A stretch of 64,000 bases of DNA, from assembly GCA_951406725.2 (NCBI GenBank), contig OX597816.1, positions 115,010,001-115,074,000 of the forward strand, given 5' to 3'. The notes beneath the pieces are model-generated. The model saw nothing but the letters and a program-made list of their open reading frames with translations. It had not been told where the DNA came from and did no database searches. The position numbers were made by a program, and so were the translations under genes. Of the stretch, positions 11,790-57,621 are shown in pieces; within the stretch, counting starts at the first letter, position 1, and every line of letters starts with the position of its first letter. This DNA is from Octopus vulgaris. Lineage: Eukaryota.

Positions 11790-12375
11790 ACCAACCATCC
11801 CAGTGGATGCCAGCTCCTGGTCAGTTCCAAGCAGTTGACCTTTTTGTGGGTGCCTGCCAGCATGCTGTAGACCAGTTTGACTTTTCCAAGCACCCTGACA
11901 TCTGAACATCTCCCCAGCTGAACTCTCGGCCCTTTGATGTCTCTGACGCTGCATGGACATAATCATAAAACTGGCCAACAAGGGTGGAGCCATGGTGGTG
12001 TGGCACGCGGACCTCTGCAAGATGGAAGCTCTCTGCTAACTTCAAGACACCTCCATCTATTGCCCTCTGCCCTCCAACCCCATGCCCAGCTACCAACAGA
12101 TTGTGTCCTCCATTACTCATGATCTCATCTCCTCCTTCCGTCTCCCCCCACTGCCTCTAACCTCACTGTCCACACCCCTTGCACTCCCACAATTTACTTC
12201 CTCCCCAAAATTCACAAACCTAATAACCCTGGCCACCCCATCTTCTCTGCCTGCAACTGCACCACTGAACTCATCTCCAGATATCTTGACCATGTCCTTG
12301 GCCCCCTAGTGGCTTCCCTTCCCTCTGACATCCATGAGACCAACCAAGCTCTTCATTTGTTCAACTCTTTCTCCT
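11790..12375 (+). pseudogene. Penelope-like element reverse transcriptase fragment (decayed)
   Basis: Manual translation: NISPAELSAL..IIIKLANKGGAMVVW (degenerate DKG motif) ..IYFLPKIHKPNNPGHPIFSACNCTTELISRYLDHVL..SDIHETNQAL; stops and a frameshift. Confidence 0.85.
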
Positions 12376-12379
12376 TATC

Positions 12380-12830
12380 ATACATAGCTGAAAAGAAGTC
12401 CATCAACACCTGGAAGATTTAGCATCAGAAAAGGAATCCCACTGCTATAGGTGTTAAAGAGTTTGAGAACTACAGGGTTACATACACTGAGTTGAAATGT
12501 ACTGGTAAATATGTGGAGCATGGAAGTCCTCTTCCTGAGAAGGTTGCAAAAGGGTCTCTTTTGTGTGACTTGTGATTGTGTCTGCTTCTCAAAGGTAGGC
12601 TTACTCATCCACAAGCATGGTCACAGAGTTGCTCCATTCTACCAGTATAATATCCAGCATGGTTTTTCAAGCACCTTGTGCAGCAGAGCATGTGGGTGAG
12701 CCAGGTCCCAACATCCAAATGGTCAGGCTGCTGTCACAAAGCTGACATGCAGTTGGTGTGGAATGACTTGTAAGTCTCTTGCAGGCCTTAAGAATCATAT
12801 AACACATCATCAGTGATGAGGAAACCAAAT
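12380..12830 (+). mobile_element. Two RTE-like LINE C-terminal fragments
   Basis: Terminal C2H2-like motifs CVTCDCVCFSKVGLLIHKH and CSWCGMTCKSLAGLKNHITHH. Confidence 0.55.
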
Positions 12831-15506
12831 ATGAAATGTTTCTGAGAGGGAAATCAGTCAAGGTGATGGTTTAACTTGGTTACAAGTTAACATTTACCAT
12901 GTACGCATGTATTTATGTGTATGTGTAAGTATGTAGGTATAAATGCACGAGAAAATGCTCATGTGTTTATATATTTGCATACTTATACGCTATGTAAATA
13001 AACCAGACAAAAAAGAAGAGGGAAACAGAACAAGCAAATAAACTTAACATGAACCAACATATGCATGTGCCACACACCTCATACACTCACTAGAAGCATC
13101 TCATACATATAGGTACACCACCACAATCACAGCCAAAAAAAAAAAAAAAAATAAGGTAGAGGGGTCTGCTGCTTTTCCTTAATCTTGATCTATTGAAGCT
13201 TCAAAGATGGTAAGTTATTCACAATAGGCTTAATCATCTTCCATTGTCAGACTAGCAGAAATCACATTCATGGATGTTAAGAGTATAACACGACCAGACG
13301 AAGCATATCCCTTCTTCATTCTGATCTTTTCATGGGTGGCATCATTGGTGGGGTGGAGTTTTTTTGGCACCACCCCACCAATGTAATATATAAACACATA
13401 CATATATATATATATATATATACACACATCCATACATGCATATATATATATATATATATATATATATATATATGTGATATATGATAAATATACACACACA
13501 CATACACACACATATACACACATATATATACACACATACACACACATATATTTATATGTACGTATACACGTGTTGGTATGTGTGTATATACATATATCTA
13601 GAGATAAGTAGAAGATATAGACATACAGTTATATATGGAGACACACTATATAATATATATGTGTGTGTATATATATATATATATATATATATATATATAT
13701 ATATATATATATATATATATATATATATATATATATATATATATTTATATATACATACATATATACATACATACATATTTTCGTGTGTTAGCCTTATTGT
13801 CTATCATGATTGGTTTGGTTTGTTTGTTTTTGATTTTTCATTATCTTGTCTTTCACTTATTTTCAATAAGAAATTTGATTATTGTTTGTTAGTACGTTTT
13901 TATTTGATAATTATTCTTATTATCATTATTGTTATTATTATTGTCATTATTGTCACTTATTATTATTGTTGTTGTTGTTGTTATCATCATCATGATCATC
14001 ATCATCATTATTATTAGTAGTAGCTATTGTTGTAGCTGCTACAAATCTTCCACCTCCTCCTCCTCCTCCTCCTTATCATCATCATCACCTTCATCATCGT
14101 AATCAACGTTGTTGTTGCTTGTGTTGTTTACCTGAGTTTTGATTTGAGAGATTCTTTATTTATCTATTTATCATATGTTGTTTACTTTCTCTCTCTCTCA
14201 CTCGATTTCTCCTCCCTCTCACTCTCTCTCTCTATATATCCCTCCTTTGCACACACACACACATACACACACTCACACTCACATCTATGTGCGCACATAC
14301 ATATATATACACACACATACATATACGTACATACACATGTATACATGCACACATATACACTCATGCACTACACATACATATATATACACATATACATATG
14401 TGTGTGTATCAATGTATACGCACTCACATGTATGCAGGTCTATACACATATATATGCATGCCTATGTATGTATGCATCTATATACGTCTATGTATGTATG
14501 TATGTATGTATGTATGCATGTATGTATGTATGTATGCATGCATGTATGTATGTATGTATGTATGTATATGTGTATGTTTGTATATATGTGTGTGTGAGTG
14601 TGTGTGTGTGCGTGTGCATGATTGTTATGATTGTGTCTATATTTGTGTGCATGCATTTCCACCTTGATAATATCAAGGAAATAGACATTTAGAAATGCCT
14701 GCACTGGCGTACCATTCTATGTCGCCTCTGCTAAAATTCTGTCACGTTTCAGCCCAGTAGGAAAGCTTACACAGCTTCAAAAGGCATGTATCAGAGCAGG
14801 AGTTCAGCATTGTTTAAAAATGAGAACATCCTGCATTCAAGGCGATGTAGCTGGCAGCTAAATAATTATAAGGGAAAGCAAGACATAGCAGTGTTACTTA
14901 GTCTGTGTGAGGGACTCATGATCCCTGTAAATTTAGCCTTTCTGCTTAGTTTTATTGCCAATAATAATATATGTGGGGGAAAAAACAAAAAACAAAAAAA
15001 AAAACGTAAAGAAAAGAAAAGAAAAACATAAAGAAGTGAGAGGATGCATGAATGGATGGATGGATGGATGGGTAGATGGTTTGGGTGAATGAAAGGGGTT
15101 GTTTAAAAGATCAGGGTGAGTTGCTTGTTTAACTTCGTTTCTACAACAGTAGAAAGATCTTATGCATGTGTGTTTATATATACATACATACATATATATA
15201 TATATATATATATATATATATATATATATATATATATAAGATATATTTTACGTAATAAGATAAAAAACCAAGGCTACAGCCTTGGTTTTTTTATCTTATT
15301 ACGTAAAAAATTCTTATATACACATGCTGACAGAACCAATGTTGAACCCTTTATTTGCAATATTACCAAATCTGGAACTTAACTATGGTCTGTCTATAGC
15401 ACTTATTCAGCATTAGCTGACACCCATGGGTCTCAGTGACACCATTATGTCTTATATATATATATATATATATATATGTGAGTGTGTGTGTGTGTGTATG
15501 TGTGTG

Positions 15507-15810
15507 GAGGCGCAATGGCCCAGTAGTTCGGGCAGTGGACTCGTGGTTGGAGGATCACAATTTTGATTCTCAGACTGGGCGTTGTGTGTGTTTCTTGAGT
15601 GAAAACACCTAAAAGCTCCACGAGGCTCTGGCAGGGGTGGTGGTGACCCCTGTTGTACTCTTTCGCCACAACTTTCTCTCACTCTCTCTTCCTGTTTCTT
15701 GAGTAATGCTGTGATGGACTGGTGTCCCGTCCAGCTGGGGGGAAAACACACTCCACAGAAACCGGGAAATTGGGCCCATGAGCCTTGCTAGGCTTGAAAA
15801 GGTCGACATT
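15507..15810 (+). mobile_element. tRNA-headed SINE with V-domain-like segment
   Basis: A-box TGGCCCAGTAG; TGTGATGGACTGGTGTCCCGTCCAG motif. Confidence 0.6.
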
Positions 15811-16206
15811 TACGTTTATATATATACATATATACACACACACAAACACACACACACACACACATATATATATATATATAGGTGTATAAGCATGTAAATT
15901 CGTGTGTATATACATACAAGCATATACACACATACACACACTCACATGCATGCATACACATTTATATGTATTCTTAAAATTTATATGAATATTTCATATA
16001 TATAATATACTTATATAGCATTACATCATCACTCAACATCTGCTTTCCATGCTAGCATGAGTTGGATGACTTCACAGGATTTGATGACCCAAATTACTCC
16101 ACCATGCTCTAATGTCTTTGTATTAATAGCATGAGTTCTTCCTAATGCCAACCCCATATAACTCAGTGCTTTTTGCATAGCATTAGCACTAGTGAAGTTG
16201 TCTACA

Positions 16207-56671: not shown

Positions 56672-56832
56672 TATATATTATATATATATATAACTTATAA
56701 ATAAGGGCAAACGAAAAAATTTTCTAATGCCAAATATGCCGAAATTGAACATATTGTCCATAACCATATAATTTTTCACAATACGCACGCTACTCGAAAA
56801 AGGTCGACAGAAATTTATAAAAAATTCCATTA

Positions 56833-56892
56833 TTACCATATCGGACCGATTTCAAGGTTAGTTCGTAAGAACCCTCCCTTCGTCAGTGATAA
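56833..56892 (-). ncRNA. Type I hammerhead ribozyme
   Basis: TTATCA-CTGACGA-A-GGG..GTTC ttac GAAC..CCTT-GAAA-TCGG t CCGA-TA^TGGTAA. Confidence 0.82.
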
Positions 56893-57312
56893 ATGTGGCA
56901 AAGAAATAAATGAGATACTTACTCATACCCATGGAAGAAGCAAAACACTAAGTCATGAGCACAATTAAGTACCCCAAATACATCCAAAATAGAAATACTC
57001 CAGCCCATTCAAGACACGTGCGATTTGAACTGAGGCTCTCACAGAGTGAGTGTGTCCGAAAGTGAACACTAATTAAATTTATATTTAATGTAGGATAACA
57101 TGTTTTCCAAAAATTTTTTATCAATGGCCAGCATATTAAAAAATACCTTTAAAGGTTAAAATTATAATCAAGTTATAAATAAGGGCAAACGAAAAAATTT
57201 TCTAATGCCAAATATGCTGAAATTGGACATATTGTCCATAACCATATAATTTTTCATAATAAGCACGCTACTCGAAAAAAAGGTTGACAGAAGTTTATAA
57301 AAAGTTCCATTA

Positions 57313-57372
57313 TTACCATATCGGACCGATTTCAGTGTTAGTTCGTAAGAACCCTCCCTTCGTCAGTGATAA
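57313..57372 (-). ncRNA. Type I hammerhead ribozyme, second tandem copy
   Basis: Same core 480 nt upstream on the minus strand; base of helix II weakened (CACT). Confidence 0.75.
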
Positions 57373-57621
57373 ATTGTGAAAAATTATATGGTCATGGACA
57401 ATACGTCTAATTTCGGCATATTTGGCATTAGAAAATTTTTTCATTTGCCCTTATTTATAAGTTGTTTATAATTTTAACCTTTAAAGGTATTTTTTAATAT
57501 GCTGGCCATTGATAAAAATATTTTTCGAAAGAATTTTATCCTACATTATATATATATATATATATATATATATATATATATATATATATATATATTTATA
57601 TTATATATATATATATATATA

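What the first reader, a model, noticed from the sequence alone, without database searches (positions are those of the whole stretch)
11790..57548. A Penelope-dependent set of ribozyme-carrying non-coding elements: four families in 64 kb
Seen: seven hammerhead cores from four unrelated sequence families (29.1/29.3 kb, 34.3 kb, 43.5/56.8/57.3 kb, 46.0 kb), none with an ORF. Most lie in (TA)n, and three families have an inverted copy of their own sequence at the 5' end. A decayed PLE RT sits at 11790-12375. Established: PLEs carry minimal type I HHRs with very short or palindromic helix III and often insert with inverted 5' segments; non-LTR retrozymes are thought to use PLE RTs. Inference: this genome may hold many thousands of HHRs in several non-autonomous families.
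Basis: partly seen in the sequence, partly recalled or inferred. Interest (0 to 1): 0.75.

Follow-up and report, generated by a model that had tools for sequence, protein, structure and literature searches.

The report
Penelope retrotransposon ends and two retrozymes
The seven self-cutting-RNA motifs are real, but two of the four families are the end pieces of protein-coding Penelope jumping genes (one with a tRNA-derived start, one with an altered core letter), and only the other two are protein-free repeats of a known kind, likely copied by Penelope enzymes.

Summary
All seven type I hammerhead sites exist; three window copies are damaged (29.1, 29.3, 57.3 kb), but family majorities are intact. 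The reading 'four non-autonomous families' is half right. B (43.5/56.8/57.3 kb, ~478-nt unit) and C (34.3 kb, 352-nt unit) are ORF-less tandem monomers with Penelope-type inversions and two fixed 3' ends: non-LTR retrozymes, a published class that this scan found before in this genome. D (46.0 kb) is the 3' end of a Neptune-like Penelope lineage; its A6U core stands in 21,705 exact genomic matches, including young intact elements. A (29 kb) follows a Poseidon-type endonuclease ORF in 40 of 40 scored loci, so it too is a terminal repeat; it begins with a tRNA-Arg-like head (an earlier scan note said so; confirmed here). Strict intact cores: A 4,010, B 228, C 580, D 21,705, so about 97% belong to ends of coding elements. 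Most A and D copies are short solo ends, likely made when reverse transcription starts in the upstream repeat. The 11.8-kb RT remnant is Penelope-type but not linked to any core. No coding partner for B or C was found; cleavage and expression are untested.

The parts
11783..12377 (+). Decayed internal RT fragment of a Neptune-like Penelope element, two frameshifts and stops; no hammerhead attached
   Evidence: tblastn with the intact ORF of L081: 61-81% identity, E 2e-65; 78% nucleotide identity; that ORF has RVT_1 above cut-off and a weak GIY-YIG match, E 0.006
29012..29122 (-). Family A inverted arm, lacking the 33-nt tail; hammerhead with G5A at 29107-29072
   Evidence: 86% to 29329-29433; core
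29131..29205 (+). Family A tRNA-Arg-like head with A-box and B-box-like motifs
   Evidence: gap-free alignment to this genome's tRNA-Arg(ACG) genes, 42 of 73 identical for this copy
29206..29287 (+). (AAC/AAT)n linker of family A
29288..29466 (+). Family A hammerhead region (core 29344-29379, G12A in this copy) and 33-nt Penelope tail (29434-29466); with the head it forms the terminal repeat of a Poseidon-type element
   Evidence: two 3' ends; link to endonuclease ORF
34147..34247 (-). Family C inverted arm carrying the longer of the two 3' ends
34262..34486 (+). Family C retrozyme, part of a 352-nt monomer; hammerhead 34283-34315 with palindromic helix III
   Evidence: 352-nt spacing in arrays
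43291..43728 (+). Family B retrozyme, second subfamily; hammerhead 43543-43591
   Evidence: 73% to the 56.7-kb copy; descriptor hit
45925..46104 (+). Family D solo 3' end of a Neptune-like Penelope element; hammerhead 45981-46008 with A6U and an extra A after A9
   Evidence: 77% to the pLTR of intact elements L081-L086; 88-92% to ends that follow GIY-YIG coding DNA in L302, L319, L323
41573..41702 (-). Second family D remnant, cut before the hammerhead core
   Evidence: 86% to 46004-46136
56675..57560 (-). Family B retrozyme: full monomer (core 56886-56839), partial tandem copy (core 57366-57319) and inverted arm (57373-57560), between (TA)n

Best explanation
The window holds two kinds of hammerhead carrier: solo terminal repeats of coding Penelope-like elements (A and D) and ORF-less tandem retrozymes (B and C), all likely written into the genome by Penelope reverse transcriptase-endonuclease proteins. 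Shown: A follows a Poseidon-type endonuclease ORF and D follows a Neptune-type one; B and C are closed non-coding units; A, B and C each end at two fixed points (33, 89 and 43-46 nt apart) and carry variable 5' inversions. Inferred: the enzyme nicks AT-rich DNA (unique sites with target duplications for A, (TA)n for B, C, D) and starts copying inside the RNA at those fixed points downstream of the ribozyme. On a full-length transcript, a start in the upstream repeat would run off the RNA's 5' end after 200-350 nt, giving the many short A and D copies that begin near one position. B and C transcripts would be cut to monomers by paired hammerheads and may circularise. The A and D ribozymes likely cut poorly as single copies (no stable helix III; A6U in D), so uncut RNA would be the template.
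For: A: in arbitrarily chosen locus L334 and in L154, endonuclease coding DNA ends about 25-50 nt before the head on the same strand; 40 of 40 scored genome matches, the query included, span the ORF-end/head junction, the other 39 at 85-88%. D: intact 1,100-1,200-aa frames in L081-L086 end in the D-type hammerhead, 5 of 6 with two copies as partial tandems; window-type D follows endonuclease DNA in 3 of 30 longer copies. 29 of 30 best D matches start within 40 nt of one position and none of 30 has PLE1-like protein upstream. C: five cores 352 nt apart, circular-fold z -7.2; B: 478-nt unit, z -4.8. Two 3' ends: C 24 copies at +173 and 17 at +216-219, B 18 at +156 and 14 at +244-245; A 23 at 137-154 and 35 at 178-185 of 62, and loose ends at 29431-33 and 29463-64 in public runs. 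Target duplications of 10 nt or more (one mismatch allowed) in 8 of 20 two-armed A insertions against 0 of 20 controls. Internal initiation, the 30-40-nt tail, and insertion without ribozyme cleavage are shown in vitro for an anole Poseidon element (PMC11167929).
Against: No coding partner shares sequence with B or C among the Penelope lineages examined, so their dependence rests on insertion marks. Only one dominant 3' end was seen for young D (51 of 53 at +110). No intact Poseidon-type ORF was seen: longest open frame 378 aa among 150 scored of 2,563 candidates. The ORF-linked share of A is small in held loci (L154, L165 of 30 best matches; L334 of 11 sampled insertions), so solo A copies could be spreading on their own. 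12 of 20 two-armed A insertions showed no 10-nt duplication with my crude end clipping. The Poseidon label rests on recalled motifs and the lack of the CxxxxCxxC linker; Pfam gave no hit for that peptide.
Confidence: 0.75

Rival explanations
1. Solo A copies are a self-propagating SINE born from the terminal repeat: RNA polymerase III would read from the tRNA head through the tail, and the Poseidon protein would copy that short RNA.
For: The head aligns without gaps to tRNA-Arg(ACG), 58-62% over 73 columns, score 62-65 against at most 40 in 1,000 shuffles. Full heads start near the tRNA +1 position. A head lies beside the tail in 25 of 30 best-match loci. A solo copy contains both promoter-like head and both 3' start points. 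About 34,000 A insertions by sampling (11 in 900 kb) against 2,563 endonuclease candidates, a lower bound.
Against: The same head-linker-hammerhead block is part of the coding element, so run-off copies give the same picture. No polymerase III data. T4-run avoidance in the coding DNA is not significant (0 and 1 seen, 1.2 expected each).
Confidence: 0.3
2. All four are independent non-autonomous families, and links to ORFs are chance neighbours.
For: None of the five window elements has an ORF; most copies of A and D in held loci lack one.
Against: The ORF-to-head junction is colinear in 40 of 40 scored loci; D closes intact coding elements.
Confidence: 0.05
3. B and C are satellites or inverted-repeat DNA transposons whose hammerhead is incidental.
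For: C shows a 50-nt inverted pair in the window and sits in (TA)n.
Against: The inverted arm length varies between copies and is a 5' inversion of the same 3' region; arrays are short and dispersed; each unit has one core and two fixed ends.
Confidence: 0.05

Closest known systems
Metazoan non-LTR retrozymes (PMC7229834, passages; bioRxiv 10.64898/2026.07.22.740005, parts 1-3 of 5 read)
   Same: B and C: ORF-less tandem monomers with one type I hammerhead each; C is within the 350-390-bp size given for mussel; Penelope mobilisation proposed there.
   Different: B is about 478 nt. In Xenopus 24 of 57 families matched Repbase elements, nearly all PLEs; B and C match no pLTR examined here. Circular RNA and cleavage untested here.
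Minimal hammerheads in pLTRs of metazoan Penelope-like elements (PMC4209133, parts 1-2 of 4 read)
   Same: A and D: extra base between 9 and 10.1, no or palindromic helix III, mostly single dispersed motifs read there as truncated PLEs, opposed pairs 100-700 bp apart.
   Different: That paper counts 2,000-9,000 per genome; here at least 31,700 (A, D and D-like). A6U as the majority core of a lineage is not mentioned in the parts read.
Poseidon_Ac of the green anole (PMC11167929, parts 1-2 of 4 read)
   Same: Two internal start points giving a 30-40-nt tail; AT-rich targets; hammerhead upstream of the start points.
   Different: No tRNA-derived segment is described in its pLTR in the parts read; it is active, whereas the A parent looks decayed.
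Schistosome SM-alpha/Sj-alpha SINE-like hammerhead repeats (PMC6765202 and PMC8490949, passages; the 1998 original was not held)
   Same: Polymerase III-type promoter next to a type I hammerhead.
   Different: Those are tandem non-coding repeats; A is mostly single or head-to-head and is the end of a coding element.
Octopus tRNA-derived SINEs of Ohshima and Okada 1994 (title seen in a reference list; that two are tRNA-Arg-derived is recalled)
   Same: Possible identity of family A with one of them.
   Different: Not testable; sequences not held.

Membership tests
Non-LTR retrozyme (B, C) | Type I hammerhead in each repeat unit | tested here: met
Non-LTR retrozyme (B, C) | Head-to-tail monomers of a few hundred nt without ORF | tested here: met
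   C 352 nt, up to five or more units; B 469-478 nt, dimers and partial tandems; no endonuclease DNA joined upstream in 30 B and 30 C loci
Non-LTR retrozyme (B, C) | Self-cleavage and circular RNA | not testable with these tools
   only a computed fold
Non-LTR retrozyme (A, D) | Closed non-coding tandem unit | tested here: not met
   joined to coding DNA; copies single or head-to-head
EN+ Penelope-like element, Neptune-like (D lineage) | One ORF with RT and C-terminal GIY-YIG, partial tandem forming pLTRs | tested here: met
   (GIY-YIG below Pfam cut-off, E 0.006)
EN+ Penelope-like element, Neptune-like (D lineage) | CX2-5CxxC linker before the endonuclease; microsatellite targets | tested here: met
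   motif in the ORF; definition in PMC8557442 passages; (TA)n flanks
EN+ Penelope-like element, Neptune-like (D lineage) | Placement in the Neptune clade on an RT tree | not tested
   no named reference sequences held
Penelope/Poseidon clade (A parent) | C-terminal GIY-YIG without the zinc-finger linker, followed by a hammerhead-bearing pLTR | tested here: met
   translation of L334; HMM of other Penelope endonucleases scores it E 0.002; junction
Penelope/Poseidon clade (A parent) | Full RT domain and clade placement | tested here: inconclusive
   only the 3' ~280 codons were held; longest open frame 378 aa
tRNA-derived SINE (A) | tRNA-derived head with A and B boxes | tested here: met
   only the Arg(ACG) isotype was compared; Rfam gave no tRNA hit in four loci
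tRNA-derived SINE (A) | Non-autonomous unit separate from the coding partner | tested here: not met
   the whole head is part of the coding element's end
tRNA-derived SINE (A) | Polymerase III transcription | not testable with these tools
   no raw RNA reads offered
Canonical hammerhead core (D) | A at position 6 | tested here: not met
   U6 in 21,705 matches; related A6 forms 6,008

The most novel reading that the evidence does not exclude
A Poseidon retrotransposon captured a tRNA-Arg promoter into its terminal repeat, so that every solo repeat is a ready-made SINE copied by Penelope enzymes instead of LINE enzymes; meanwhile the most numerous hammerhead of the genome carries A6U in a still active lineage, which would mean that Penelope elements spread without working self-cleavage.
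Probability: 0.3. Interest if true: 0.7.

Novelty: new variant of a known kind. Interest (0 to 1): 0.42.

Why it matters
The class is published, so the set is no surprise. Two details give tests of open questions. First, a tRNA-headed terminal repeat shows how a Penelope-dependent SINE could arise, and asks whether some of the 11.6% SINE fraction reported for an octopus genome (PMC13282606, passages) is Penelope ends. Second, more than 21,000 A6U cores in a lineage with near-identical intact copies, beside A6 sister families, allow a direct test of whether Penelope hammerheads need to cut.

Tried and rejected
My first reading of A as a separate tRNA SINE was dropped. A 2-kb gap inside an A copy (L417) proved to be a LINE in the linker, not the parent ORF. 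tblastn with three Neptune-like ORFs missed the Poseidon-type parent; an endonuclease HMM found it. The Pfam GIY-YIG genome search returned Neptune-like elements in 29 of 30 loci seen and one host-like gene. Partners for B and C were sought at the 3' ends of the 1,100-aa, 775-aa, 811-aa, 781-aa and AT-rich-UTR lineages without a match. Endonuclease DNA near B in L191, L187, L197 and near C in L015, L018 belongs to neighbouring insertions. ARAGORN found no tRNA in the window and only a poor low-threshold fold for the head majority. No RNA holder was listed for A; this is no evidence on expression. What follows the A tail in raw reads stays open. T4 avoidance was inconclusive. Two source papers (Lunse 2017, Ferbeyre 1998) were not held, so whether A6U is among the variants tested there is unknown; supplements were not opened. 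Searches that listed no paper describing a Penelope-dependent SINE or a polymerase III pLTR: (listings only; most subscription papers and Repbase are not covered).
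Full report
Setting. The window is G000:C3:115010001-115074000 in a 2.80-Gb animal genome, rich in (TA)n and (AAT)n. From its repeats it is probably an octopus; that is inference and no call names it. I label the families A (29.1/29.3 kb), B (43.5/56.8/57.3 kb), C (34.3 kb) and D (46.0 kb).

Observation. The seven sites are present. Three pass a strict type I descriptor, against 0.13 on average in 30 shuffles. The two A cores each have one box mutated, the 57.3-kb copy has a broken helix II, and the C copy has one helix I mismatch. 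Family majorities are intact. The claims on missing ORFs, (TA)n flanks (5 of 7) and inverted arms (A, B, C) hold. The RT remnant is Penelope-type and unlinked to any core.

Abundance. Exact genome-wide patterns covering both boxes and helix II give A 4,010, B 228, C and close kin 580, D with U6 21,705 and D-like with A6 6,008; reversed controls gave 0. The patterns differ in strictness (B has the most fixed letters), so the ratios are rough. In 90 stretches of 10 kb taken at round coordinates, the descriptor gave 32 hits against 0-3 in five shuffles; seven come from one array and a few look spurious. Insertions by homology were D 15, A 11, B 5, C 2, about 100,000 genome-wide with wide error. 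The window has six such insertions in 64 kb, roughly 2.5 times the sampled rate.

Family C. Copies stand 352 nt apart in short dispersed arrays, often with an opposed arm. The unit closes on itself and has no ORF. Copies that end in (TA)n stop at +173 (24) or +216-219 (17) from the predicted cut, of 43. The window copy is a direct arm with the short end and an inverted arm with the long end. Helix III is a palindrome, so cutting is predicted for dimers. The monomer folds as a circle with z -7.2 against 40 shuffles.

Family B. A unit of 469-478 nt occurs as monomer with terminal redundancy, partial tandem or head-to-head pair in (TA)n. Ends fall at +156 (18) and +242-245 (15) of 33. Helix III can form four pairs in a monomer (read from the sequence). 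No endonuclease DNA is joined upstream in 30 B and 30 C loci; nearby hits are separate insertions. B and C fit non-LTR retrozymes as described in PMC7229834 (passages) and bioRxiv 10.64898/2026.07.22.740005, where only one of nine tested dimers cleaved. Earlier notes of this scan report like families in this genome.

Family D. A search with the RT remnant scored 150 of 2,155 candidates, many with open frames above 1,000 aa. Six fetched elements end in a D-type hammerhead, five as partial tandems with 97-99.8% identical repeats. The window's D is 77% identical to that end and 88-92% identical to ends that follow endonuclease DNA in L302, L319 and L323 (3 of 30). The 30 best matches are about 200 nt long; 29 start within 40 nt of one position and none has such protein upstream. 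So D is the terminal repeat of an older subfamily, mostly as solo ends. The core has U6 in old and young subfamilies. A natural A6C core had low activity (PMC3088659, passages); A6U does not occur in that text.

Family A. Copies consist of a tRNA-like head, an (AAT)n linker and a hammerhead region. The head aligns without gaps to six ARAGORN-confirmed tRNA-Arg(ACG) loci (three aligned): 58-62% identity, scores 62-65 against at most 40 in shuffles. Other isotypes were not compared. Direct arms end at position 179 and inverted arms near 146; contigs of four public runs from three organism labels break at the same two places. Target duplications appear in 8 of 20 two-armed copies. I first read this as a separate SINE. 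Some of those places abut A motifs listed. The parent looks decayed.

Mechanism. For an anole Poseidon element, reverse transcription starts at two internal points, which explains the 30-40-nt tail, and ribozyme mutants still insert (PMC11167929). Partial tandems, inverted 5' copies and the one-sided tail are general Penelope marks (PMC8557442, passages). I infer that A and D solo copies arise when copying starts in the upstream repeat and reaches the RNA's 5' end, and that B and C borrow such enzymes. Which enzyme is unknown. Whether solo A copies then propagate from their own head is open.

Novelty. Hammerheads in Penelope ends, their dispersal as single motifs, and retrozymes as Penelope derivatives are in print. 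An octopus repeat annotation has no occurrence of 'ribozyme' (PMC13282606). The tRNA-headed terminal repeat and the A6U majority were not found in the searches and passages listed under Tried and rejected; the first was noted before by this scan. Verdict: real, largely known biology with two variants; interest 0.42.

Noticed in passing
window 46137-46700 (-); L328, L371, L066, L392: 3' ends of several AT-rich Neptune-like lineages keep GAAA plus a palindromic CCGG and a cut-site-like triplet, but no CUGANGA box was seen upstream; the young 775-aa lineage shows no hammerhead by my descriptor. They may be decayed or rewired ribozymes.
   Followed up: partly
L081-L086, L326-L329, L357/L362, L409-L415: At least five young Penelope lineages with long open frames (about 1,100, 775, 811, 781 and up to 894 aa), several with many identically scoring copies.
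   Followed up: partly
L062, L065, L070, L083:2520, L099, L135, L204, L236, L242, L339: At least eight further hammerhead families with unrelated helices and palindromic helix III.
   Followed up: no
L417; window 25119-26019: A LINE with a restriction-like endonuclease motif sits in the (AAT)n linker of an A copy; an 85% identical fragment is in the window.
   Followed up: partly
window 33362-34020: Repeat next to family C with four sampled relatives in 900 kb; it has scattered hammerhead-like words but no descriptor hit.
   Followed up: partly
L151: Both arms of an A insertion are followed by the same flanking sequence, an inverted duplication that includes host DNA, or an assembly artefact.
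   Followed up: no
G000:C2:211.89-211.91 Mb: Cluster of about 20 tRNA-Arg(ACG)-type matches within 15 kb.
   Followed up: no
window 56300-56680 and 41790-42450: Mariner-like transposon fragments by recalled motifs; 41687-42440 is 77% identical to 57514-58235.
   Followed up: no
run X15: A junction joins the end of the A tail back to position 29313, hinting at a rare short tandem form of the hammerhead region.
   Followed up: no
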